This document shows positions 2,509 to 60,826 of a DNA stretch of 64,000 nucleotides, in pieces. The stretch's first letter is position 1. The number at the start of each line of letters is the position of its first letter. Under the pieces are notes generated by a model. That model had not been told where the DNA came from and did not search any database. It was given only the letters and a program-made list of their open reading frames with translations. The stretch lies in the IMG/VR virus record IMGVR_UViG_2563366553_000007. One strand, 5' to 3'. The position numbers were made by a program, and so were the translations under genes. Source of the stretch: a virus.

Positions 2509-4458
2509 TTATTTTAATAATTCTCTTTTAGCTATTCGTAACAGTTCTGTTGGAATCTTATAAGGTTCACATGAAACTATACTTTTCTCATACATATACA
2601 AGAATTTATTAGCTAAAGATTCTCTTTCCTTCTTACTACCAAACATTATATTAAAAATTAATATACCATCTCTTCTTCCATCTCTTATAGCACATTTAAC
2701 ATCATCTAAAGCTAATTTATCTCCATATAAGCCATTAACATATGGTAGCCCATCGGATAAAATGATTAAAATTTTCTTGTCTTCATTTCGTTCCTTTAAT
2801 TCCTCTAACGCTACTCTTATTGAATATCCATCCATATTACATCCTTCTGCTTTATTATTTTTTAAGAAAGCCAAACTCTTATTACCTTTTTTCTCATTAA
2901 AATTTTTAATTATATGATGATTTATGTTATATGTCACATTAAATTGTGCTATTTTTAGTGCCACAAACTCACTTAAAGCATCTTCCAATATAGCTGTAGC
3001 TTTATACGCTTCTTTAAATTTTTCGCCTGTCATAGACCCACTTCCATCAACCAAAACATAAAATGCATGATTTTTTTTATTATCATAATATCTTTTTTTA
3101 AATATGTCATATTGCTTATTTTGTATTTTCCAAATAGCATTAGTATCTAATAATCCTCTTTTTTTATTTTTAGGATTTATCTTTACTTGATCAATAATTA
3201 TTTTACTTAACTCTTTTTTTAATTTCTTTGACTCAGTTAAAATATCTCCTGTTACACTTACTTTCTCATAATTGTAATTTATCACATTAAGATTATCTTT
3301 AAATCTAAAGTGTTTATCTTTAAATAACTCATTATAATAATTTTCTATATCTTTCATTTTTTCTTGACTCAATGAGTCTTTTGCATCCAGTTCGTCTTTC
3401 TTATCTTTTTCTTTTTTTAATATATCTTCTTTTTCTGCCTGGATTATTGCTGAATTAGATTCTTTATATAGAAAATCTTTAGACTCTTCTATTATTTTAT
3501 CCACAAGTTCTTTTAAGTCAAAATCATTAGCTCTATTCTCATCATTAGTGCTACTTTCCAACTTATCAGTACTTTCACCAAGTTCTTGTTTTTTATCATC
3601 AGATTTAAATGCCCCATGTATATTATTTTCTATATTTTCTTCTTCACATTCCTCATACTTATTCATACTTCCATCTATATTTTCACCTATTTTTGAAAAG
3701 CCTTTATTTAAATCGATTAAATCCTCCTGTTCAGGAAGCTTTAATAACTCTGCTACCAACCAATCTTCTATAGAATATACTAATTCCCATGCATATTTTA
3801 AACAATCACTAAAACTATTACAATTAACAGCTTTAGAACAATAGAGTTTTATATTATTTATTATATTTTCATTTGTATAATTATAATGTTTAGTATAATC
3901 TTCTGGTAAAATACCCATCGTTGCAATTGTTGTAATACAAAATAAAGTGTCAAATAATTCATTGTTATTATCTTTTATTGGTTGTTCCCTCCACCAGAAG
4001 CCTCTCATTAAAATTAAATCACTAATTATACCTGGATAATTTAAAGATAATAATCTTTCTATTCTTCCATCTTCAATTGAGTTTATTATAAATGCGCCAA
4101 CTTCTTTAGTTTTATTTTTACCCAGTTTATACTTATCCTTAAAATGCAAACTAAATTCTTCTATAAAACCTCCATACTTTTCTTTTGGCGTATAGTTTTT
4201 ATGGGAAACCTCATGCCCAATTAAAGCTTTACAAATAGAAAACAAAACTTCCTTTGTTTCCCCTTCCATATATTCTGGGATACCTATAAAAACATCTTTA
4301 AAATCCGTATAAGTACTTCCACCTACTTTTAAAAATAAACTAAATTGTTGCATTTTTTCATCTATTAAGTTGGCAAAAAATTTTAATTTTTTATTAATGC
4401 TATATGAATCACAAAATTTAATAATATCCTTTCTTCCCATTACCTCTAAACTATTCAT
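2509..4458 (-). CDS. vWA-domain protein, CobT-like (partner of the adjacent AAA+ ATPase)
   Basis: The C-terminal von Willebrand A domain carries a MIDAS motif, VLVDGSGSM...ILSDGLP. The N-terminal 400 aa is of unknown fold, with an acidic low-complexity linker. The gene is co-oriented with and immediately downstream of the AAA+ gene. Confidence 0.65.
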   Translation of the reverse strand: MNSLEVMGRKDIIKFCDSYSINKKLKFFANLIDEKMQQFSLFLKVGGSTYTDFKDVFIGIPEYMEGETKEVLFSICKALIGHEVSHKNYTPKEKYGGFIEEFSLHFKDKYKLGKNKTKEVGAFIINSIEDGRIERLLSLNYPGIISDLILMRGFWWREQPIKDNNNELFDTLFCITTIATMGILPEDYTKHYNYTNENIINNIKLYCSKAVNCNSFSDCLKYAWELVYSIEDWLVAELLKLPEQEDLIDLNKGFSKIGENIDGSMNKYEECEEENIENNIHGAFKSDDKKQELGESTDKLESSTNDENRANDFDLKELVDKIIEESKDFLYKESNSAIIQAEKEDILKKEKDKKDELDAKDSLSQEKMKDIENYYNELFKDKHFRFKDNLNVINYNYEKVSVTGDILTESKKLKKELSKIIIDQVKINPKNKKRGLLDTNAIWKIQNKQYDIFKKRYYDNKKNHAFYVLVDGSGSMTGEKFKEAYKATAILEDALSEFVALKIAQFNVTYNINHHIIKNFNEKKGNKSLAFLKNNKAEGCNMDGYSIRVALEELKERNEDKKILIILSDGLPYVNGLYGDKLALDDVKCAIRDGRRDGILIFNIMFGSKKERESLANKFLYMYEKSIVSCEPYKIPTELLRIAKRELLK

Positions 4459-4482
4459 ATAATATTCCTCCTTTTTTATCTT

Positions 4483-4510
4483 TATAAAACAAAAACCACT
4501 TAAGTGGTTT
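4483..4510. terminator. Palindromic hairpin between the AAA+ and vWA genes (possible intra-operon attenuator)
   Basis: The sequence is AAAAACCACTTAAGTGGTTTTT, a perfect palindrome flanked by A/T runs. Confidence 0.35.
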
Positions 4511-4515
4511 TTGTT

Positions 4516-6168
4516 TTATACACATATCTGTTCTATTACTTCTTTAACATTTTCTCTATATTCTGTGTCTCGTACTTTGTTTGCAACTCCAACAATCAAG
4601 GCTTCTTTTATGCTTTCTAAATCTTCACTCATCTTTACTGCATGTATAAATCCTCTAATGCTCATACAACTTTCATCTAAATCAACATATATACTTTTTA
4701 TAAGATCTATCAGCTTTGAGTAAACTTTATCAGCAATTAATAAATCTGACTGTTTAACACAAGGACAAGAATCTTTTAAAATTGAGTATATGCTATTATT
4801 AGATTCAAATAATATATCTACAAATCTATCAGATAAAGCTTCATTTAAATCAGAAGTACCTTCATATCCAACATTCATAGTTCCTATAACAATAAAATTT
4901 TCTTCAGCTCTAACTTGTTTGTATCCTGGCACTTCAATAGATTGTCTATGGTCGGTAATAGAATGTAGCAGGGCTGTCACTCCTGGATCAGCAAAATTTA
5001 TTTCATCTACATTTATAATTCCACCTTGTTCCATAGCTTCAAGAAGTACTTCAGGCTCAAATACTATGGTGCTCTTTGAAATTCCATTCTCGTCTACTTT
5101 TGTGTCTACGCTTTTTGACCCTAATAAGTCAAACTTATCGGTCTCTTTGCTTATAGAAATAGAGTATAGAGGTCTTTGGAATATCCAAGCCATAGTTTCT
5201 ACAAAAATATTTTTACCTGTACCTTTTTCTCCCGAACAGAGTATATGACACTTGTTTCTAATTGCAGAACAACCTATTTTTAAATTATTAGAGTTATCTT
5301 GATAATTTGGATTTTCTTTAGGTATTCTATGAGAAACATTCTTGCCATATTTTTTGTAAGTACTAAATATTTTTTGAATTAAAGCAATCTTAAAATTATT
5401 ATTTAATAAATAATCTTCTATTTCATCTAATATAGTTTTATTAAATCCTTTTTTAATTAATTTTTCTTTTATTTTTATATTTTCTTCTTTTAATGCCTCA
5501 TTAGTAACACTTTTATATTTTTCTAAATCAAAATCAAGAACTACATAAAAATCTGTTTTTTCAGTTTTATATATTTCTGCTAATCCTATGTCTATATTTG
5601 ATTTTAAAATAGTTTTTAATGCTTTAATCTCATTAACAGAAGAACATTTAGGAAAATCTTTTTCTTCTATGACTCCAGCTTTTTCTCCATTTTTGAATAG
5701 TATTATCTTTTCATTTTCCAACCCAACTTTTAAAAATATTTTTTCTCCATTTTTGAATTGATTAATAGCCTCCATCTTTTTCTTATATTCTTTTATGCTC
5801 CCTTTTACTTTTAGTATTAAATTTCTCCTAAACTCATTTTTTTTATCATCGTTTTCAGAGTCACTTTGTATCTCAACAATTAAAATTGTTTTTGTTTTAT
5901 TGGTTTTAATCTCATCATAACCAACTACTATGCCATAAAATTCATCTTTCATCTTGTTCACTATAGCATGGTTAGAAACGGTACCTTCACCCATTGTTTT
6001 TGGTTGTGCAGATATAAAGCCTATTTTTTCTTCTTTAAAAAATGCAATTATTGCATCCTCATCCATTTTATTTTTTGGATCTTTTTTAAATGTGATTTTT
6101 GTTCCTATCTCTATATAATCTAAATCCTTATAACTATGTACAACTGATACCTTTTCCATAAATAACAC
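4516..6168 (-). CDS. MoxR/CobS-like AAA+ ATPase (AAA_5 type) with a 150-aa N-terminal extension
   Basis: Walker A is SGEKGTGKN and Walker B is IINVDEINFADPGV. Sensor and arginine-finger regions (TMNVGYEGTSDLNEALSDRF) are typical of the MoxR/CobS/dynein-related subfamily. Confidence 0.75.
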   Translation of the reverse strand: MLFMEKVSVVHSYKDLDYIEIGTKITFKKDPKNKMDEDAIIAFFKEEKIGFISAQPKTMGEGTVSNHAIVNKMKDEFYGIVVGYDEIKTNKTKTILIVEIQSDSENDDKKNEFRRNLILKVKGSIKEYKKKMEAINQFKNGEKIFLKVGLENEKIILFKNGEKAGVIEEKDFPKCSSVNEIKALKTILKSNIDIGLAEIYKTEKTDFYVVLDFDLEKYKSVTNEALKEENIKIKEKLIKKGFNKTILDEIEDYLLNNNFKIALIQKIFSTYKKYGKNVSHRIPKENPNYQDNSNNLKIGCSAIRNKCHILCSGEKGTGKNIFVETMAWIFQRPLYSISISKETDKFDLLGSKSVDTKVDENGISKSTIVFEPEVLLEAMEQGGIINVDEINFADPGVTALLHSITDHRQSIEVPGYKQVRAEENFIVIGTMNVGYEGTSDLNEALSDRFVDILFESNNSIYSILKDSCPCVKQSDLLIADKVYSKLIDLIKSIYVDLDESCMSIRGFIHAVKMSEDLESIKEALIVGVANKVRDTEYRENVKEVIEQICV

Positions 6169-50179: not shown

Positions 50180-50282
50180 AAAATATTTTCATAAAAATAA
50201 ATTTGCAATTTTGTTGACTATAAACAATAAAAAGTATATATTTATATTAAAAATAATAAAAAAATTCAAAAAAGGAGAAAAA

Positions 50283-52333
50283 ATGATTGATATTATGGTT
50301 ATTGTATTTACATTAGTAATTTGCATATTTTTAGGGATTATACTAATTGGACCAAGGATTATCGGAAGCGGAGAAATAGGAATTGTTGAAAAAAAATTTT
50401 CAAAGAACTTTTTAAAAGAAGGTGAACTTATAGCTTTAAATGGAGAAGCTGGTTTTCAAGCTGATATTCTTAGAACAGGATTACATTTTAAGAATAGACT
50501 TTTTTACAAAGTTCATAAAAAGCCATTAGTTACAATAAAACAAGGACAGATTGGTTATGTTTTCGCACGTTCAGGTGAAAGTTTAAAAAATGGGCAAATA
50601 TTGGGTAGAGCAGTGTCATGTAATGATTTTCAAGATACAAAAACATTTTTGAAAAATGGAGGTCAAAAAGGACCTCAAAGAGTTGTTTTAAGAGAAGGAA
50701 CCTATGCTTTTAATTTAGCTGAATTTATAATCTTAACAAAAAATGAAACTTATTTTTTAAATATAGGAGATAAAAAAGAAATTGAAGATATCAAAAAGAT
50801 GAAAGATGAGTTAATTAAGAAAAATGGCTTTGACCCAATAGTCATTGATGATAAAGAAGATAATCTTGGAATTGTAGTAACTAAAGAAGGAAAAGCATTA
50901 AAGCAAGGAGATCTAATTGCACCAATAGTTGGAGATGATGAAAATAATCCTGACTTATACCACAATTCATTCCAAGATATAGAAGCATTTTTAAAAGCTG
51001 GAGGATATAAAGGTAGACAATATGAAGTATTGACAGAAGGGGTATATGTAATAAATCGTCTTTTTGCATCAATTGAAATTGTACCCAAACAAGAAATAGA
51101 AATAAGTTCAGTTGGGGTAGTTTGTTCTTATATTGGACAAAAAGGAGAAGATGTTTCTGGCAAATCTTACACTCATGGAGAGTTAGTAGAAGATGGATGC
51201 AGAGGGATACTTAAAAATCCTTTAATGCCAGGCAAATATGCTTTTAATATTTATTCTGGCTCAATTGAAAAGATTCCAACTGATAACTTTGCGTTAAAGT
51301 GGAGAGGCGATGAATGTGGCCAATATGAATATGATAGACATTTAAAAGAATTAAGTGTTATTACCAAAGATGGTTTTAAACCATTATTGCCACTTTCAGT
51401 AGTAGTCCACATTGATTATAAAAAAGCACCACTTGTAATACAAAGATTTGGTTCAGTACAAAAGTTAGTTGACCAGACTTTAGATCCTATTATATCTGCT
51501 TATTTTAAACAAGTTGCAGAGACAAAAACTTTTTTAGAGTTACTACAAAATAAAACAGAGATAAGCCAAGAGTCGTATAAAATAATGAAAGAAGAATTTC
51601 AAAAATTTAATTTGGAATTAGAAGAAGTTTTAATAGATACTCCTAAAGCAAATGGGGATGAAAGGATATTAGCCCTTATAGAACAGTTAGCAGATAGACA
51701 ATTAGCAAAAGAGCAAGTTGAAACATATGAGGCCAAAAAACAGCATCTGCAAAGGAAAGAGAATATAGAGAACTACAATCTAAAATAAATGAACAAGATA
51801 ATCTAACAAGTTCAGAAGTCCATATTAGTATAGAAAAAAATAATGCAGAAGCACAAAAAGCAGTGGCAAAGATAAAAGCAGAGCAAAATAAAATAGAAGC
51901 AGATTCAAAACTATATATTAAAGAAAAAGAAGTAGAAGCTGAGATATATAGAATTTCAGAAAAAGCAAAGGCAGAAGCAGAAAGTATTAAAGCGTTAGCA
52001 GAAGCAGAAGCACAAAAAGAAGAAAAGGTAGGTAAAGCGATAGCTTCAGCCAATCGAGAAAAAGCAAAGGCTTATGGTAGTGCAGAGCTTCTAATAACAA
52101 AGGAAATTGCTATAGCAGTTGCAGAAGCTATAAAAGAAGGAAACGTTGATATAGTCCCTAAAAATGTTATATCTAATGGAAATATGGATAGCTGTAATTC
52201 ATTAGGCAATCTTGTCCAATTAGTTACACTAAATAAACTGGAAAGCAATGAATATCTAAAAAAAGAGAAGATAGGTAATCCAATAGATTTAAAAGAAGAA
52301 ATAATAAATGTAACAGAAGAAAGCTTACAATAG
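50283..52333 (+). CDS. Flotillin/SPFH (band-7) family protein, frameshifted at A6 run about 51734-51740
   Basis: The RBS AAAAGGAGAAAAA precedes ATG at 50283. The track ORF from 50211 probably includes 24 non-coding codons. An N-terminal TM and the SPFH domain (GEIGIVEKKF...IKQGQIGYVFARSG) are present. The flotillin C-terminal AEAEA/KAKAE repeats continue in the frame of ORF 51863..52333. Confidence 0.75.
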
Positions 52334-53894: not shown

Positions 53895-54509
53895 ATGCTA
53901 AATAAAATTAAATTTATAATTACTGTATTTTTGTTATTTATAAGTTGTAGCTCAGAAGTTAATGCTTATAGAGATAAAGAAATTTCCGACTTGGAAATAG
54001 AACATATAAGAAGTGAAGCTTTTGATTATAGTTCTTTTATAGAGTTAGATGGGGTTGATTACAATACTCAATTCAAAGTATATAAATATCTTGATGTTAT
54101 TCCTGAAAATATTATAGAGAAATTTATAGAAAATAAAATGAAAATAGAAATAACGAATAAATCTCTTCAAGAAAGATTTTTGAGTAATTACATATTGTCT
54201 GGAGTTTATTTTGATAAAACAATACATTTAAGTAGTAATAAAGACTGGGCAGAACAATCTTTATTACATGAATTTGGGCATTTTGTAGATGAAATATCTT
54301 ATATGGATAAAAATGAATTTATTAAAATATATGAAAGAGAAAAAGACAATTTAATATTAAATAAAGATAAAGATAAAAGCTATTATTTAAGAAATGTGTC
54401 TGAATACTTTGCTCAATCTTTTGAAGAATATCTAATAAATCCAGAAAGATTATTATTAAACAATCCCAAAACGTATGAATATATAAAGCTTTGTATAGAT
54501 CAAATTTAA
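53895..54509 (+). CDS. Lipoprotein zinc metalloprotease, anthrax-lethal-factor-like/PPEP-like HExxH family
   Basis: The lipobox is LLFISCSS. The motif is HEFGHFVDEISY, with a downstream E (SEYFAQSFEEY). The protein is about 200 aa. Confidence 0.5.
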   Translation: MLNKIKFIITVFLLFISCSSEVNAYRDKEISDLEIEHIRSEAFDYSSFIELDGVDYNTQFKVYKYLDVIPENIIEKFIENKMKIEITNKSLQERFLSNYILSGVYFDKTIHLSSNKDWAEQSLLHEFGHFVDEISYMDKNEFIKIYEREKDNLILNKDKDKSYYLRNVSEYFAQSFEEYLINPERLLLNNPKTYEYIKLCIDQI

Positions 54510-56708: not shown

Positions 56709-57227
56709 ATGAATAAAAAGAATATTAATTTAATTAATGAACTAACAAAGGATATAATAGACATTTATATGATTGAAATTCCAATAAAAGATATGAATAA
56801 TGTTGTTGATAAAATGGGAGGAATAATTAAAAAAGATAATTCTTTAAGTAAATTTTCAGACTCTTATATTAGAAAATTAAAGAATTATCATTATGAATTT
56901 GAAATAGTAATTCCTTATGGTCAATCCAATCATATATCCAATATGCATATAGCTAAAGCATTAGGACACTTATTTTTGCACATGAGATATAATATAGATG
57001 ATGATATATGGAATTCTCAGAAAATAAATGAATTTTATAAAAGTAAAAATTTGCAAGAAGAAGAACAAGTTAAAGAGTTTGCACTTGCATTATTAATGCC
57101 TAAAAGTGAATTTGAGCTTATCGAAGAAAATGGTGTAATTAATATAGATAAAGTTTCTAAATATTTTAATGTCAATCAAAGAGATGCTTCAAATCGAGCA
57201 TATAGTTTAGGATATATAAAAAAATAA
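56709..57227 (+). CDS. ImmA/IrrE (peptidase M78)-like domain protein with degenerate active site
   Basis: NMHIAKALGHLFLH is in register with the family motif xxTLAHELGHLLLH. The catalytic H and E are replaced by K and A. The downstream FALALLMPKSEF resembles the family's second conserved block. Confidence 0.45.
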   Translation: MNKKNINLINELTKDIIDIYMIEIPIKDMNNVVDKMGGIIKKDNSLSKFSDSYIRKLKNYHYEFEIVIPYGQSNHISNMHIAKALGHLFLHMRYNIDDDIWNSQKINEFYKSKNLQEEEQVKEFALALLMPKSEFELIEENGVINIDKVSKYFNVNQRDASNRAYSLGYIKK

Positions 57228-57233
57228 TTGTAA

Positions 57234-57268
57234 TAAAAAGGTGCTTTTAAAAGCACCTTTTTATTACT
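57234..57268 (+). terminator. Rho-independent terminator
   Basis: The hairpin is AAAAGGTGCTTTTAAAAGCACCTTTTTATT. Confidence 0.55.
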
Positions 57269-57343
57269 TGTTGAAGTATACATTTTATTTAGGATATAAT
57301 TTTAATTATAGAGAAAAAATATTCTATAATAGAGGTGAGATAA

Positions 57344-57603
57344 TGGATAATTTAGATTGGAGCAAGATAGGAGCTATAGGTACAATTGTAATAGGGATAG
57401 TAACTGTAGTATTAACTTTTATAGGGGTGCGTCAAAATAAAATAAATAGAAACAAAAAAAGTAACAAACAAATTATTAAAGGTAAAGATATCTTAAATAA
57501 TGAAATAACACAATCAAGTGAGAGTAAGAAAAATGAAGATAATAAACAAATTATTAAGGGTAAAAAAATATCTAAAAATAAAATAAAACAAGATAATAAA
57601 TAA
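57344..57603 (+). CDS. Small single-TM protein with Lys-rich repeated tail
   Basis: The RBS AGAGGTGAGATA precedes ATG at 57344. The track ORF 57241 starts upstream without an RBS. The TM segment is IGAIGTIVIGIVTVVLTFIGV. The tail repeats NKQIIKGK x2. Confidence 0.4.
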
Positions 57604-57616
57604 AGGGACTAATATT

Positions 57617-60600
57617 ATGGGAATAAAAAAAATATTAAGTAGATTTCTTTTTAAGAACAATATATCTGAACAAAAGGTAAATGGGGTAATTTTAAGTGGG
57701 AATACTATAATACAAGAATCAAATACTTACAAAAATGAAAAAATTGTAGATGAGTATATGAAGGATAAATTAGATGAAATAGAGTCTTTATTTGATAGGC
57801 AAGAATATGAAGAAATAGAGGATAAGATTAACTGGATATATAGAAAAAAACAAGATAGGTTTAGCGAAGCTGTTGAAAGAAAATTATTACAATATAATTG
57901 TTTTTTAGCACTATTAACAAATAAGCAAGAGAGATTATCTGAATATTTTAAAGAACTTGAAGCATATGGAGATAAAACGGCTGAGTTTCTAAATGTTAAA
58001 TTTAACATAGCTACTTTTTCACAAAGTGATAGTATTTTTAAAGAGTTAAAATCTACATGGGAAAGTCTTGATATGGATAGTTCAAAAATAGATAGTAATG
58101 AAATTAAATACTTATATTTTTCTAAACAGTATGATGTTTTAATTGAAAGATTTAACAATGAAAAGGATTTAGATGCACCAGAGATAAAATTATATGTAGC
58201 TAAATCTTTTATTAAAATTGAAAAATTTGATGAAGCAGAGAAACTCTTATTTGAAATTAAAGAAAAAGGAGATACATATAAAGCTGAATATATACTTTGC
58301 AAAGCCTTATCTGTATTTAGTATTGATAGAGAACTTGGTGAACTCACAGAGGGTGAGAGGGTTGTTTTTAGTGACTGTATCGAAGAAATAAAAAATATCA
58401 ATTTAGAGAAATTGGAATTTAATCAATTTAGAGAAATATCTTATTATAAACTTCAAATGATTTTATTTAGTGACAAGAGCTTAGCACTTGAAGAGATTTC
58501 TAATCTTTCAGATAAATTTGAAAAAGATACTGAATTTTATGTTTTAAAAATAAATATTTTTAATTTAAATGGAAAATATGAAGAAGCTGATAAGATTTGT
58601 AAATACCTTTTAGAAAATAATGGTAATATTAATATATATATATCAAGTGTTATTAATAATTGTTTATGTATGGAAAATTGGTCTAAAGTAAAAGAATTAT
58701 TTATAAAATATAGAGATTATTTAGAAAATATAGACTTTGCTTTTTATGCATATGGTTTTTCTCTATTGAATCTATATGGAGAAGAATACACAATTAATGT
58801 AATAGAAAAAGAATGTAAAGCAGAAGGAAATCTGATAGATTTTTTGCGTGCTAAAGCTAACTCGAAGAATAAGGAAAAGAGTGAATTTTATTTAGACAAG
58901 ATTGTTAACAATACAAAAAATAAAGACCTTATTTTATTAGATGTTGCAGATGAATATATGAATATGGATAATACTGAGAAGTCTTTGGCTATAGTAAAAG
59001 AAAATAGTATTTATGATATAAGATTTCTAAAGAGATACATATCCATTACAATAAGTAAAAATATGGAGGCGTATTTTGATGATATTTTAGATATTTATAT
59101 AAGATGCTACATTGATACTTGTAATGAATATGTAGAGAGAGGTATTTATTCTATTTATATTAAAAAAAAGCTATATAGAGGAGCTTACTTTATAGCAAAA
59201 AAAGCATTTAATAATACTAAAAAATTATATTGGCTTAATGAACTAACACGAATGAAATTAATAAATAAAGAACTAATTGATTTAAAGGAATTTGCCGACA
59301 TATTAAACAATGAGAAAGATTTACAGTATTTAATGACAGCGAGTGAAACCTATTTAAAACTTGGAGAAGTGACTAAAGCAAGAGAATTAAGTTATAAGAT
59401 TGCTTTTAATATGAACAATATGGACATAGATTCAGCTATTAGAATTTGGCAAATTTTATTGTCTAATGAAATACAAAACGTATCTGATTTTGAAGAACAT
59501 AAAGATTTGATTAAACAAGTTGAACTTGATGATGTTATTATATTAAAATCAGGTAAAGAAGAATTAAAAGTTTGTTTAAATAAAGAAGTTTTTTACAGAA
59601 TAAATGATATCCGATTTGGTTGTTTACATATTAATATGAATGAAGGTTTATGGATAGAACTTTTAGGAAGTAAAGTTAATGATGAAATTAACTTTAAACA
59701 AAAAGAATATAAAATAATAGAGATAATTAATAAATATGATTTTTTAACAAGGTCATGTTTTAATATTAGAGTTAAAGAAAAAGATGATAATATAAAAATG
59801 CTTTCAATAAATGAGAAGGACTTAATTGAAAACACTGACAATGATTTAATACGTGAACTCCAAAAAGATATAGATAATTTTAATAAACGTCTTGATGGTT
59901 ATTTAGGAAAAGATAAATCAATGGGAGGATTTGAACTACCTATAAATTATCTGCTTCCACAGATAGAAAATGTTAATGGGAATATTGATTATTTACTAAA
60001 AGACAAAAACTTGTTTTTTAAATCAGGGATGTCAAATATTATAGAAGAAGGAAGTAAAGTTGTATTAACAATAGTTAGTACTTTATTATTGAGCAAAGTC
60101 AATTTACTTGATGAATTTATGAGTTATTATGATGTTTATGTACCAAGGCGTTTAATTGAAAGTATAGAAGACACAATAAGTGAATTAACTATTAATTTTA
60201 GCAATAAAAGCGTAAAAATATATTCAATAGAGAAAAAGTTGGTTTTTTTTGAGAAAGATCAAAAAGAAAAAAAAATAGAATTAAAAAACTTCAATAAGAT
60301 AATTGAATCTTTAAAGAAAGGAAAAATAATTTCTAAAGATATATACATAAAACACTATGTATCTATACCTGAACAGGTTATGTATTCTGCAGATATGGAA
60401 GCTTTTGAAATTTCAAAAGCTGAAGATACTTCTATATTCATAGATGATAAATTTACCTGCTTATTATATAGTACAATTCATAGTCAAAGACGTTCTAATA
60501 TGGCTGGATTTATAAATTCAATACTGTTTAATGATTTTAATAAATATTGGAAAATAGCAGAGCAACTAATAAAAAGTAAGTATGAATATTTTTTTAATTA

Positions 60601-60826
60601 TATTGATTTAGAAACACTTGTATTTAATTTAGATGTAGGCACAAGAAATAATATTAAGAAATTTAAGCATGTGTTTAAAATAATTTTAAAAAATGATATA
60701 AACGGTTTTTATTCTTTATTATTAAGATTTATTTGTACAGATATAACATTTATACATAAATCATACTTTAAATATAAAATAAAAATAGATATTATAATGG
60801 ATATAATATCAAACTTAGAAAAATAA
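57617..60826 (+). CDS. Large (1069 aa) hypothetical protein, helical-repeat rich
   Basis: The ORF is uninterrupted. The N-terminal half has TPR-like amphipathic helices. No Walker or nuclease motif was recognised by eye. Confidence 0.5.
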   Translation: MGIKKILSRFLFKNNISEQKVNGVILSGNTIIQESNTYKNEKIVDEYMKDKLDEIESLFDRQEYEEIEDKINWIYRKKQDRFSEAVERKLLQYNCFLALLTNKQERLSEYFKELEAYGDKTAEFLNVKFNIATFSQSDSIFKELKSTWESLDMDSSKIDSNEIKYLYFSKQYDVLIERFNNEKDLDAPEIKLYVAKSFIKIEKFDEAEKLLFEIKEKGDTYKAEYILCKALSVFSIDRELGELTEGERVVFSDCIEEIKNINLEKLEFNQFREISYYKLQMILFSDKSLALEEISNLSDKFEKDTEFYVLKINIFNLNGKYEEADKICKYLLENNGNINIYISSVINNCLCMENWSKVKELFIKYRDYLENIDFAFYAYGFSLLNLYGEEYTINVIEKECKAEGNLIDFLRAKANSKNKEKSEFYLDKIVNNTKNKDLILLDVADEYMNMDNTEKSLAIVKENSIYDIRFLKRYISITISKNMEAYFDDILDIYIRCYIDTCNEYVERGIYSIYIKKKLYRGAYFIAKKAFNNTKKLYWLNELTRMKLINKELIDLKEFADILNNEKDLQYLMTASETYLKLGEVTKARELSYKIAFNMNNMDIDSAIRIWQILLSNEIQNVSDFEEHKDLIKQVELDDVIILKSGKEELKVCLNKEVFYRINDIRFGCLHINMNEGLWIELLGSKVNDEINFKQKEYKIIEIINKYDFLTRSCFNIRVKEKDDNIKMLSINEKDLIENTDNDLIRELQKDIDNFNKRLDGYLGKDKSMGGFELPINYLLPQIENVNGNIDYLLKDKNLFFKSGMSNIIEEGSKVVLTIVSTLLLSKVNLLDEFMSYYDVYVPRRLIESIEDTISELTINFSNKSVKIYSIEKKLVFFEKDQKEKKIELKNFNKIIESLKKGKIISKDIYIKHYVSIPEQVMYSADMEAFEISKAEDTSIFIDDKFTCLLYSTIHSQRRSNMAGFINSILFNDFNKYWKIAEQLIKSKYEYFFNYIDLETLVFNLDVGTRNNIKKFKHVFKIILKNDINGFYSLLLRFICTDITFIHKSYFKYKIKIDIIMDIISNLEK

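What the first reader, a model, noticed from the sequence alone, without database searches (positions are those of the whole stretch)
56709..60826. Three-gene island inside the repeat-protein cluster: ImmA-like pseudo-protease, Lys-rich TM peptide, 1069-aa unknown protein
The M78/ImmA-like gene is in register with the family HEXXH block, but both catalytic His and Glu are replaced (KALGH). No partner HTH repressor is adjacent. It is followed by a small single-TM protein with a repeated lysine tail and then a very large helical-repeat protein with no recognisable enzymatic motif. Degenerate-protease sensors coupled to large effector-like proteins are a recurring theme in phage-defence and abortive-infection islands. 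This trio does not match any system I can name.
Basis: inference. Interest (0 to 1): 0.55.

Follow-up and report, generated by a model that had tools for sequence, protein, structure and literature searches.

The report
Bab/Agp-like phage-defence pair in Clostridioides
The 1069-aa "unknown" protein belongs to a known family of candidate phage sensors (TPR, GreA/B-C and PIN domains), and it forms a conserved two-gene unit with the small membrane peptide, sharing a short end motif with it as in the E. coli Bab/Agp amyloid-signalling defence system; the degenerate ImmA-like gene is probably only a neighbour.

Summary
The three ORFs are real. The window is 100% identical to the 300-kb circular "plasmid unnamed" of C. 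difficile BI1 (NC_017177.1).

The ImmA/M78 gene has KALGH in place of HELGH. It is followed by a strong hairpin terminator and a promoter-like site. It accompanies the other two genes only at the orthologous megaplasmid locus.

The 1069-aa protein is not an enzyme-less repeat protein. It has:
- a disordered N-terminus;
- about 575 aa of TPR-like helices;

Profile searches link it to proteins that score above threshold on Pfam PF20698. This is the TGP family of Kaur et al. 2021.

The 86-aa gene sits 13-20 nt upstream of such a gene in every fully read locus, seven lineage/context combinations in all (megaplasmids, prophage end, Tn7-like cargo, SIR2-containing islands). It encodes a short N-terminus, one TM helix and a basic tail.

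The tail of the small protein and the N-terminus of the large protein share Q-x-[IVL]-x-G-x5-N-x3-Q. This pattern occurs three times in the six-frame translation of the window, and only there.

The best reading is a Bab/Agp-type abortive-infection pair with a minimal single-TM effector. Defence activity and amyloid behaviour are inferred, not shown.

The parts
56709..57227 (+). ImmA/IrrE (Peptidase_M78)-like protein of 172 aa. HEXXH is degenerate (K-A-L-G-H), and there is no HTH domain or HTH partner. It is probably a separate transcription unit and not part of the core system.
   Evidence: Pfam PF06114 E 6.6e-7. KALGH here against HELGH in phiCD27 gp38, which is 48% identical. Found only in orthologous megaplasmid loci. 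dN/dS 0.17-0.53, from few substitutions.
57230..57267 (.). Perfect 17-bp palindromic hairpin followed by a T-run. It is terminator-like in both directions and lies between the M78 gene and the small gene.
   Evidence: Found by the terminator scan, and the sequence was read directly. RNA fold -22.6 kcal/mol, z -6.7, 0 of 200 shuffles fold as well. Its 22-nt core is also present in pESW1602.
57271..57300 (+). Promoter-like site TTGAAG-18 nt-TATAAT upstream of the small gene. The RBS GAGGTGAG lies at 57332-57339.
   Evidence: This is a consensus match only. The number of such sites in the region equals the number found in shuffled sequence.
57343..57603 (+). Small effector-like protein of 86 aa: MDNLDW, one TM helix (residues ~9-29), then a Lys-rich cytoplasmic tail ending in QDNK.
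   Evidence: The RBS and RefSeq CDS WP_009899559.1 fix the start. Homologues of 57-88 aa lie 13-20 nt upstream of every full-length relative of the large gene whose upstream DNA was read.
57469..57513 (+). Tail motif copy R1, residues 43-57: QIIKGKDILNNEITQ.
   Evidence: One of only three matches to Q-x-[IVL]-x-G-x5-N-x3-Q in the six-frame translation of the window, against 0.017 expected.
57547..57591 (+). Tail motif copy R2, residues 69-83: QIIKGKKISKNKIKQ. It is homologous to the single C-terminal motif QIIKGLFISKNKINQ of other lineages.
57617..60826 (+). TGP-family protein of 1069 aa. It starts 13 nt after the stop codon of the small gene.
57671..57715 (+). N-terminal motif of the large protein, residues 19-33: QKVNGVILSGNTIIQ. 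It lies inside a segment predicted to be disordered (residues 1-39).
   Evidence: The third and last pattern match in the window. Second-ranked hit of an HMM built from the motifs of other lineages. pLDDT below 50 for residues 1-39. Q19 and T30-Q33 are invariant in the clade.
57734..59461 (+). TPR-like helical repeat region, residues ~40-615. Likely the sensor or scaffold. It is the most divergent part between alleles.
   Evidence: AF2 gives about 34 helices with pLDDT mostly 80-92. Homologues carry TPR_19 and other TPR hits. The middle of the gene has dS 0.63 against 0.05-0.2 at its ends.
59531..59731 (+). GreA/B C-terminal-like beta domain, residues ~639-705.
60056..60496 (+). PIN-like alpha/beta domain, residues ~814-960.
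60497..60823 (+). C-terminal helical bundle, residues ~961-1069. It is exchanged between alleles.
   Evidence: AF2 pLDDT 83-96. Block-wise identity: P0003 is 100% identical here but 42-76% in the middle, while P0001 is 98% identical overall but 70-78% here.

Best explanation
**Functional unit.** Genes 57343-57603 and 57617-60826 form a two-gene operon. It is carried on a 300-kb C. difficile megaplasmid.

**The large protein.** It is a member of the TGP family: TPR repeats, a GreA/B C-terminal-like domain and a PIN-like domain. This family is proposed to monitor RNA polymerase that a phage has taken over.

**The small protein.** It is a minimal membrane effector with one TM helix. The positive-inside rule predicts that its Lys-rich tail lies in the cytoplasm.

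**The shared motif.** The tail carries two copies of a ~15-residue motif (Q-x-[IVL]-x-G-x5-N-x3-Q). The same motif also sits in the disordered N-terminus of the large protein.

**Proposed mechanism, inferred by analogy with E. coli Bab/Agp:**
1. Infection makes the large protein oligomerise.
2. Its N-terminal motifs come together and form a beta-sheet or amyloid-like template.
3. The template recruits and orders the tails of the small protein.
4. This clusters the TM helices and permeabilises the membrane.
5. The infected cell dies before the phage completes its cycle (abortive infection).

**The ImmA-like gene.** It is a catalytically dead M78 protein under purifying selection. It is most likely a separately transcribed neighbour or a lineage-specific accessory, not a core component.

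**What is shown:** the domain architecture, family membership, conservation of the pair, the shared motif, and the separation of the M78 gene from the pair.

**What is inferred:** antiphage function, RNA polymerase sensing, amyloid templating and membrane killing.
For: **Family membership of the large protein**
- A profile of the clade finds 88 relatives. The full-length ones score 32-56 bits on PF20698 'PIN domain associated with the TPR-GreAB-C-PIN system'. They carry TPR hits and N-terminal Mrr or alpha/beta-hydrolase effector fusions.
- hhalign and the recurrent PF01272 hits agree.
- AF2 shows a disordered N-terminus followed by helical repeats.

**Conservation of the pair**
- A homologous 57-88 aa gene (N(L/I)DW, TM helix, basic tail ending Q-x-N-K) lies 13-20 nt upstream of the large gene in every locus whose upstream DNA was read.
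- The contexts differ:
  - two megaplasmids;
  - a C. difficile prophage end after holin, amidase and a methylase;
  - loci next to recombinase remnants, a resolvase or an unrelated small gene, some with a large SIR2_2 gene nearby;
  - Tn7-like cargo;
  - a Clostridium chromosome with a SIR2_2 gene immediately downstream.

**The shared motif**
- The best 15-mer match of the tail anywhere in the ~1050-aa partner falls at residue 5 of the partner in three lineages. Shuffles reach the observed score in 5/5000, 2/5000 and 86/5000 cases.
- In the window the pattern occurs three times in 64,924 six-frame residues, against 0.017 expected. All three sites are in the tail of the small protein or the N-terminus of the large protein.
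- Two motif copies on the effector and one on the receptor is a known arrangement for BASS pairs (10.1101/2020.01.06.895854).

**Precedent**
- The pair gives abortive infection against T5. Beta-breaker mutations in either motif, or mutations in the GreA/B-C domain, abolish protection.

**M78 as a separate unit**
- The hairpin terminator and promoter-like site lie between M78 and the pair.
- No M78 gene lies next to the pair in the other lineages.
Against: - No experiment exists for this clade. Defence, amyloid formation and membrane killing all rest on analogy with one preprint.
- In the window's own lineage the tail motifs have lost the hydrophobic pair: QIIKG-KD-I... and QIIKG-KK-I... against QIIKG-LF-I... 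elsewhere. As a result:
  - the tail-versus-N-terminus score is weak (197/5000 shuffles reach it);
  - an HMM built from the motifs of other lineages does not rank the tail copies among its top hits;
  - amyloid competence here is therefore doubtful.
- The pattern was defined after seeing the sequences.
- The small protein has no Bell/Babybell helical domain.
- I could not obtain the E. coli Bab/Agp sequences, so relatedness of the motif to BASS11 is untested.
- The PIN-like domain lacks the canonical beta1 Asp, and PF20698 scores only E 0.08 on this protein.
- The M78 gene is under purifying selection and always accompanies the pair on the megaplasmids. An accessory role is not excluded.
- PADLOC has no model that matches the large or small protein.
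Confidence: 0.6

Rival explanations
1. The three genes form one system. The catalytically dead M78 protein acts as a sensor or regulator that controls the pair. For example, it could bind a phage protein or hold the large protein inactive.
For: M78 sits immediately upstream of the pair in all megaplasmid orthologues. It is under purifying selection despite losing H and E of HEXXH. Its intact phage homologue gp38 is itself paired with a large unknown protein in the accessory region of C. difficile phages, so this M78 lineage does tend to travel with cargo genes.
Against: All M78-containing loci are the same syntenic locus, so they amount to one evolutionary observation. The pair occurs without any M78 gene next to it in the other lineages. 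A strong terminator hairpin and a promoter-like site separate M78 from the pair. The M78 ORF is N-terminally shortened to 144 aa in some orthologues.
Confidence: 0.15
2. The pair is a functional unit, but the shared motif is an ordinary docking interface rather than an amyloid or prion-like template. The small protein would simply tether or regulate the large protein at the membrane. The PIN-like or another domain would be the real effector.
For: The motif is short (15 aa). In the window lineage it is highly charged, with KD or KK replacing LF, which argues against strong self-assembly. The large protein keeps the acidic residues conserved across the family in its PIN-like domain. Kaur et al. 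proposed transcript cleavage by the PIN domain as a first line of defence.
Against: In E. coli, Agp alone gave no protection, and Bab was needed as the executor. The small proteins have conserved Gly/small-residue-rich TM helices and nothing else, like membrane-disrupting peptides. Duplicated motifs on the effector side mirror the HET-S and BASS arrangements.
Confidence: 0.2
3. The pair is a plasmid or mobile-element addiction module of the toxin-antitoxin type. It would stabilise the 300-kb element rather than defend against phage.
For: The pair lies on a megaplasmid and on other mobile elements. PIN domains are classic VapC toxins. Co-expression of Bab and Agp is toxic in E. coli.
Against: The architecture is unlike VapBC. 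There is no small DNA-binding antitoxin, and the PIN-like domain is embedded in a 1069-aa multidomain protein that lacks the beta1 Asp. The family is linked to defence-type effector fusions such as Mrr and alpha/beta-hydrolase. SIR2_2 genes lie near some loci. Allelic mosaicism of the repeat region fits an immune sensor.
Confidence: 0.07

Closest known systems
E. coli ECOR25 Bab/Agp abortive-infection system (Ibarlosa et al., bioRxiv 10.1101/2024.11.07.622273)
   Same: [quoted passage not shown] A short motif is shared between the C-terminus of the small protein and the N-terminus of the large one. The small protein has an N-terminal hydrophobic helix. The system sits in mobile or defence contexts.
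   Different: The small protein here is 57-88 aa, made of a true TM helix plus a tail. It has no ~80-aa Bell/'Babybell' helical domain. The motif is ~15 aa and shares at most the 'N-[ST]-T-I-I-Q' half with the BASS11-looking 'STIIQAGGD-x-NI' N-termini of distant TGP proteins. The host is a Firmicute. In this lineage the motif is duplicated and Lys-rich. No experimental data exist.
TGP (TPR-GreA/B-C-PIN) conflict systems of Kaur, Iyer, Burroughs and Aravind 2021 (eLife 10:e70394, PMC8195603); Pfam PF20698
   Same: The constant core is the same: TPR repeats, a GreA/B-C domain and a divergent PIN domain. The family evolves rapidly and its N-terminal module varies.
   Different: That paper describes mostly stand-alone genes with fused N-terminal effectors or EAD10. 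Here the N-terminus is only a short motif, and the effector is a separate single-TM peptide gene.
NLR/Bell and NWD2/HET-S amyloid signalling pairs (BASS1-10; Dyrka et al. 2020, bioRxiv 10.1101/2020.01.06.895854)
   Same: Adjacent receptor and effector genes share a terminal motif. The effector sometimes carries two or three motif copies. The effector targets the membrane.
   Different: The receptor here is a TGP protein, not an NB-ARC or NACHT NLR. The effector lacks a Bell or HeLo domain. That paper reported Bell domains and NLR-like architectures as rare or absent in Firmicutes.
ImmA/IrrE (Peptidase_M78, COG2856) anti-repressor proteases and related defence regulators (CapP of CBASS, RmrA)
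   Same: The 172-aa protein matches the M78 profile and gives weak PADLOC hits to RmrA and CapP.
   Different: HEXXH is KALGH. There is no fused or adjacent HTH partner. The gene is transcriptionally separated from the pair.

Membership tests
TGP (TPR-GreA/B-C-PIN) family, Kaur et al. 2021 / Pfam PF20698 | N-terminal to central block of TPR-type helical repeats | tested here: met
   AF2 shows about 34 consecutive helices over residues 40-615 with pLDDT mostly 80-92. Clade members and distant relatives hit TPR_19, TPR_2 and TPR_14.
TGP (TPR-GreA/B-C-PIN) family, Kaur et al. 2021 / Pfam PF20698 | GreA/B C-terminal (FKBP-like) domain after the repeats | tested here: met
TGP (TPR-GreA/B-C-PIN) family, Kaur et al. 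2021 / Pfam PF20698 | C-terminal PIN domain of the PF20698 type | tested here: met
Canonical PIN-domain nuclease | Four conserved acidic active-site residues, including the beta1 Asp | tested here: inconclusive
   D926, E928, D943 and D944 match acidic positions conserved across the family; D944 is found in 72 of 73 sequences. The beta1 strand is VVLT (family consensus VL[ST]LSS) and has no Asp. The candidate helix Glu (E851) is not conserved across the family.
Bab/Agp-type amyloid-signalling abortive-infection pair | Small effector gene immediately upstream of the TGP gene, conserved across contexts | tested here: met
   The gap is 13-20 nt in every locus whose upstream DNA was read.
Bab/Agp-type amyloid-signalling abortive-infection pair | Short motif shared by the C-terminus of the effector and the N-terminus of the TGP protein | tested here: met
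   The best tail match falls at residue 5 of the partner in three lineages, reached by 5, 2 and 86 of 5000 shuffles. The pattern occurs only at these sites in the window. The match is weaker in the window's own lineage.
Bab/Agp-type amyloid-signalling abortive-infection pair | The motif belongs to the BASS11 family | tested here: inconclusive
   The BASS11 sequences appear only in figures that are not held, and there are no supplements. Distant TGP N-termini carry '..STIIQAGGD.NI..', and this clade keeps only 'GNTIIQ' of that. Attempts to fetch E. coli Agp failed.
Bab/Agp-type amyloid-signalling abortive-infection pair | The effector has a Bell/Babybell helical cell-death domain | tested here: not met
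   The small proteins are 57-88 aa: about 8 residues, one TM helix, a linker and the motif. There is no room for an ~80-aa helical bundle, and there are no significant Pfam or PHROG hits.
Bab/Agp-type amyloid-signalling abortive-infection pair | The motif forms amyloid, and the system confers abortive infection | not testable with these tools
   This needs peptide fibrillation assays and phage challenge.
ImmA/IrrE M78 metallopeptidase | M78 fold or profile match | tested here: met
   PF06114 at 29.6 bits against a cut-off of 22. 48% identity to phage 'metallo-protease' gp38.
ImmA/IrrE M78 metallopeptidase | Intact HEXXH zinc-binding and catalytic motif | tested here: not met
   KALGH here, and KSLGH or KVLGH in orthologues, against HELGH in gp38.
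ImmA/IrrE M78 metallopeptidase | Fused or adjacent HTH (XRE-type) repressor partner | tested here: not met
   The neighbours are a DUF4116 protein and the TM peptide. The M78 protein aligns only to the region of RmrA models that follows the HTH.

The most novel reading that the evidence does not exclude
This clade may be a stripped-down amyloid-signalling death switch in a unicellular Firmicute pathogen. A 57-88 aa peptide consisting only of a TM helix and a 15-residue templating motif would be converted into a membrane lesion by prion-like templating from a TGP sensor. That would show that the Bell/HeLo helical sheath is dispensable. On the C. difficile megaplasmid, the R1 and R2 motif copies carry opposite charges at matching positions, and the conserved dead M78 protein could add a further regulatory layer.
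Probability: 0.3. Interest if true: 0.75.

Novelty: new variant of a known kind. Interest (0 to 1): 0.55.

Why it matters
- It turns two RefSeq "hypothetical proteins" (WP_009899558.1 and WP_009899559.1) on a C. difficile megaplasmid, and related genes in C. difficile prophages, into a concrete and testable candidate phage-defence system. This matters for phage therapy and for the ecology of prophages and plasmids in this pathogen.
- If the motif works by templating, amyloid-type immune signalling would extend to Firmicutes, where Bell domains and NLR-like architectures were reported as rare or absent.
- It would also define the smallest effector known for this kind of signalling: a TM helix plus a motif. 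That makes the question of what the helical sheath of Bell/HeLo domains is for directly testable.

Tried and rejected
**Searches that led nowhere**
- PADLOC models: no hit for the large or small protein, only generic M78 similarity to RmrA and CapP.
- NCBIfam and PHROGs: nothing informative.
- Sequence-only profile search of the PDB with the GreA/B-C segment: no GreA hit. Fold and profile-profile methods were needed.
- A second word-indexed homologue search with the clade alignment: no new proteins.
- Genome, viral and metagenome scans with the clade alignment: only 1, 1 and 2 extra loci, so the clade is rare.
- tblastn of the large protein against phage records: no match.

**Attempts to obtain E. 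coli Bab/Agp or the BASS11 sequences**
- The paper holds them only in images and has no supplements.
- The cluster look-up of ten BASS11-like TGP representatives returned no names.
- The alignment of distant TGPs was too divergent to scan with.
- The one viral locus retrieved had a fused N-terminal domain and no small partner gene.

**Analyses that failed or gave negative results**
- An HMM built from the motifs of other lineages did not rank the window's two tail copies among its top hits.
- The first version of the motif statistics script timed out.

**Ideas considered and rejected**
- The 120-aa GTG ORF as the small gene. The RBS, RefSeq and the homologues all support the 86-aa start.
- The 173-aa gene upstream of the pair in Clostridium sp. 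LQ25 as an M78 homologue. It has no HEXXH-like motif and no visible similarity to the M78 protein; this was judged by eye and not tested by alignment.
- M78 as a decaying pseudogene. dN/dS is 0.17-0.53.

Full report
**Origin and observation**

The window is 100% identical over the large gene to Clostridioides difficile BI1 "plasmid unnamed", NC_017177.1. This is a 300,869-bp circular record, and the window corresponds to about 236868-300867 of it. The element carries its own dnaE, primase-like and YabA-like genes. A related 305-kb plasmid, pESW1602 of an environmental Clostridioides, carries the same locus.

The three + strand ORFs exist as described. RefSeq annotates them as:
- an ImmA/IrrE family metallo-endopeptidase (WP_009899560.1);
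- an 86-aa hypothetical protein (WP_009899559.1);
- a 1069-aa hypothetical protein (WP_009899558.1).

They lie among DUF4116 repeat genes.

**The M78 gene**

- It passes the Pfam Peptidase_M78 threshold at 29.6 bits against a cut-off of 22.
- Its closest annotated relatives, at 48% identity, are "metallo-protease" genes of temperate C. difficile phages phiCD27, phiC2, CDKM9 and phiCDHM19.
- phiCD27 gp38 reads IAHELGHLFLH where the window protein reads IAKALGHLFLH. The loss of His and Glu is therefore real. It is kept in all orthologues as KALGH, KSLGH or KVLGH.
- There is no HTH domain or HTH neighbour.
- dN/dS between orthologues is 0.17-0.53, based on few substitutions. This argues against a decaying pseudogene.
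- Immediately after its stop codon lies a perfect 17-bp palindromic hairpin with a T-run (57230-57267). It folds at -22.6 kcal/mol with z -6.7.
- After the hairpin come TTGAAG-18 nt-TATAAT and the RBS GAGGTGAG, 3 nt before the ATG at 57343.
- M78 therefore looks like its own transcription unit.

**The large protein**

Pfam gave one weak lead, PF20698 "PIN domain associated with the TPR-GreAB-C-PIN system" at E 0.08. Four further lines of evidence confirm it.

1. Full-length homologues at 42-43% identity carry precomputed PF20698 and TPR_19 hits.
2. A profile of the 13-member clade, searched against 1.84 billion representatives, found 88 relatives. The full-length ones score 32-56 bits on PF20698 against a cut-off of 27.8. 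They carry TPR hits and in some cases N-terminal Mrr-type nuclease or alpha/beta-hydrolase fusions. This is the variable-effector architecture that Kaur et al. 2021 described for this family (PMC8195603).
4. For the beta domain (residues ~639-705), PF01272 GreA_GreB is the only Pfam family hit by more than two of 47 family segments: 5 hits, best E 9.4e-4. hhalign against a GreA/GreB/Gfh1 C-domain alignment gives E 5.7e-5.

Within the PIN-like domain the window keeps the acidic positions that are conserved across the family: D926, E928, D943 and D944. The beta1 strand has no Asp, as in most of the family. Nuclease activity is therefore uncertain.

**The pair is the conserved unit**

In every locus whose upstream DNA was read, a homologous small gene ends 13-20 nt before the large gene:

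| Locus | Context |
|---|---|
| Window, L004-L008, L018 | Megaplasmid locus |
| L001, L002 | Recombinase-remnant ORF upstream; resolvase and a large SIR2_2 gene downstream |
| L011 | Recombinase remnant (Zn_ribbon_recom) upstream |
| L012 | Small gene of unknown function upstream |
| L014, L016 | IMG/VR viral contig; metagenome contig |
| L003 | Romboutsia MAG |
| L009, L010 | C. difficile prophage end, just after holin, amidase and an N6/N4 methylase |
| L020 | Cargo next to TnsB, TniB and TniQ |
| L021 | Clostridium sp. LQ25 chromosome, SIR2_2 gene immediately downstream |

A further relative (P0119, 1193 aa) has a 60-aa gene called about 130 nt upstream, but no DNA was available to read.

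None of the non-megaplasmid loci has an M78 gene next to the pair. The 173-aa gene upstream in LQ25 shows no HEXXH-like motif and looks unrelated; this was judged by eye, not by alignment.

The small proteins share one plan:
- M-x-N-[LI]-D-W at the N-terminus;
- one Gly/small-residue-rich TM helix;
- a basic linker;
- a C-terminal motif ending Q-x-N-(N)-K-stop.

**The shared motif**

The tail motif of the small protein recurs at the N-terminus of its large partner:

| Locus | Small protein tail | Large protein N-terminus |
|---|---|---|
| L001 | QIIKGLFISKNKINQ | QSIKGIFIKGNTIIQ |
| L003 | QVVKGLFISNNKIEQ | QLIRGIFIKGNTIVQ |
| L009 | QKIKAPFMSDAEIEQ and QSVKGIFMSRSKIKQ | QKLKSLIIKDSTIIQ |
| L020 | QKVGGFIVSNNEIKQ | QNVFGVFNFKNNITQ |
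| L021 | QKVRGFIISNNEIKQ | QSIIGIFNINNKSIQ |
| Window | QIIKGKDILNNEITQ and QIIKGKKISKNKIKQ | QKVNGVILSGNTIIQ |

Statistics:
- Each tail was scanned against the whole ~1050-aa partner. The best 15-mer falls at residue 5 in L001, L003 and L009. Shuffled tails reach the observed score in 5, 2 and 86 of 5000 trials.
- In the window the pattern Q-x-[IVL]-x-G-x5-N-x3-Q occurs exactly three times in 64,924 six-frame residues, against 0.017 expected from composition. All three are at these sites.

Caveats:
- The pattern was written after seeing the data.
- In the window lineage the hydrophobic LF pair is replaced by KD or KK. The direct score is therefore weak (197 of 5000 shuffles reach it).
- An HMM built from the other lineages finds the large N-terminus, ranked second in the window, but does not rank the tail copies among its top hits.

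**Comparison with what is known**

Kaur et al. 2021 defined the TGP core. [quoted passage not shown]

Ibarlosa et al. (bioRxiv 2024) showed the following for E. coli ECOR25:
- Bab is 109 aa, with an N-terminal hydrophobic helix in a small helical domain and a C-terminal BASS11 motif.
- The adjacent TGP protein Agp is 1094 aa with an N-terminal BASS11 motif.
- Together they give abortive infection against T5.
- Beta-breaker mutations in either motif, or mutations in the GreA/B-C domain, abolish protection.

Dyrka et al. 2020 documented effectors with two or three motif copies. They reported Bell domains and NLR-like architectures as rare or absent in Firmicutes.

The Clostridioides pair has the same gene order, the same receptor family and the same placement of the motif. 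It differs in three ways:
- The effector is only a TM helix plus a tail, with no Bell-type domain.
- The motif is shorter. It resembles at most the first half of the "..STIIQAGGD.NI.." N-termini seen in distant TGPs.
- The host is a unicellular Firmicute.

I could not retrieve the E. coli sequences, so membership of the motif in BASS11 is open.

**Mechanism, most likely reading**

Shown:
- the architecture;
- pair conservation;
- the shared terminal motif;
- a tail predicted to be cytoplasmic (18 K/R in 57 residues).

Inferred:
- The TGP protein senses infection, possibly through RNA polymerase, and oligomerises.
- Its disordered N-terminal motifs then form a beta template.
- The template orders the tails of the membrane-anchored peptide and clusters the TM helices into a lesion.
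- The cell dies before phage release.

M78 is probably a neighbour or a lineage-specific accessory.

Other points:
- Alleles of the large gene are mosaic. dS is 0.63 in the middle against 0.05-0.2 at the ends, and the C-terminal helices are swapped between alleles. This fits recombination-driven diversification of a sensor.

**Verdict**

- This is a new variant of a known kind, not a categorically new system.
- Family assignment and pair conservation are high-confidence. Defence function is moderate-confidence. Amyloid templating is about even odds, and lower for this particular Lys-rich allele.

Noticed in passing
L013 (phiCD27 NC_011398.1) 3980-6063; also phiC2, CDKM9, phiCDHM19, phiCD508: The intact-HELGH homologue of the M78 gene (gp38, 173 aa) overlaps a conserved 528-aa protein of unknown function (gp37; phrog_6174; faint NUDIX-like similarity in the middle of the protein). 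The two genes lie between the lysis module and the integrase of several temperate C. difficile phages. This is a candidate two-gene accessory or defence cassette.
   Followed up: partly
window 1-64000 = NC_017177.1 ~236868-300867: The window lies on a ~300-kb circular extrachromosomal element of C. difficile BI1. The element has its own dnaE, CHC2 primase-like, YabA-like, RusA, VWA/AAA and T4SS coupling-protein genes. A 305-kb relative (pESW1602) exists in an environmental Clostridioides. PLSDB types both as non-mobilizable.
   Followed up: partly
window 53895-54509: A 204-aa protein with a signal peptide or lipobox-like N-terminus and an intact HEFGH motif matches the anthrax lethal factor (ATLF) metalloprotease domain at E 4.5e-12. 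It is embedded in the DUF4116 cluster and conserved in the orthologous loci.
   Followed up: no
L001 9244-10437; L002 4825-6018; L011 9246-10439; L012 9241-10434: A 397-aa protein with no Pfam or PHROG hit follows the pair about 85-95 nt downstream in every locus of one lineage. It may be a third component there. It is absent from the window.
   Followed up: partly
window 57617-60826 compared with P0001-P0004: Alleles of the large gene are mosaics. P0003 is ~90% identical over the first 100 aa and 100% over the last 70 aa, but 42-76% identical in between. P0001 is 98% identical except for the last 70 aa (70-78%). dS in the middle is 0.63 against 0.05-0.2 at the ends, which points to recombination between diverged alleles.
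   Followed up: yes
window 57469-57591 (small protein residues 43-83): The two tail repeats differ mainly by charge at matching positions. R1 (KDILNNEITQ) has D and E where R2 (KKISKNKIKQ) has K and K. This recalls the salt-bridged pseudo-repeats of HET-s, but it is speculative.
   Followed up: no
window 57617-57673 (large protein residues 1-19): Only the megaplasmid lineage has an N-terminal extension of about 14 aa, MGIKKILSRFLFKNNISEQ. Its FLFKNNISEQ part resembles the motif FNFKNNITQ of P0013, so the large protein may also carry two motif copies.
   Followed up: no
L020 1-3586; L021 7161-8921; L001 11705-15159: Relatives of the pair travel as cargo next to Tn7-like genes (TnsB, TniB, TniQ) or lie near SIR2_2-domain genes. 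These are typical defence-island or mobile-element contexts.
   Followed up: partly
L006-L008, M78 ORF (e.g. L006 7174-7608); L004 6450-6662; L018 4653-5798: In some orthologues the M78 ORF is shortened to 144 aa and starts at Met29. An IS200/IS605 tnpB gene, full-length in pESW1602 and a fragment in L004, is inserted just upstream of M78.
   Followed up: no
window 50211-52333: An SPFH/Band7 protein of 525 aa is followed by a 156-aa Ala/Glu/Lys-rich protein that looks like a coiled coil. They lie upstream of the DUF4116 cluster, and their function is unknown.
   Followed up: no
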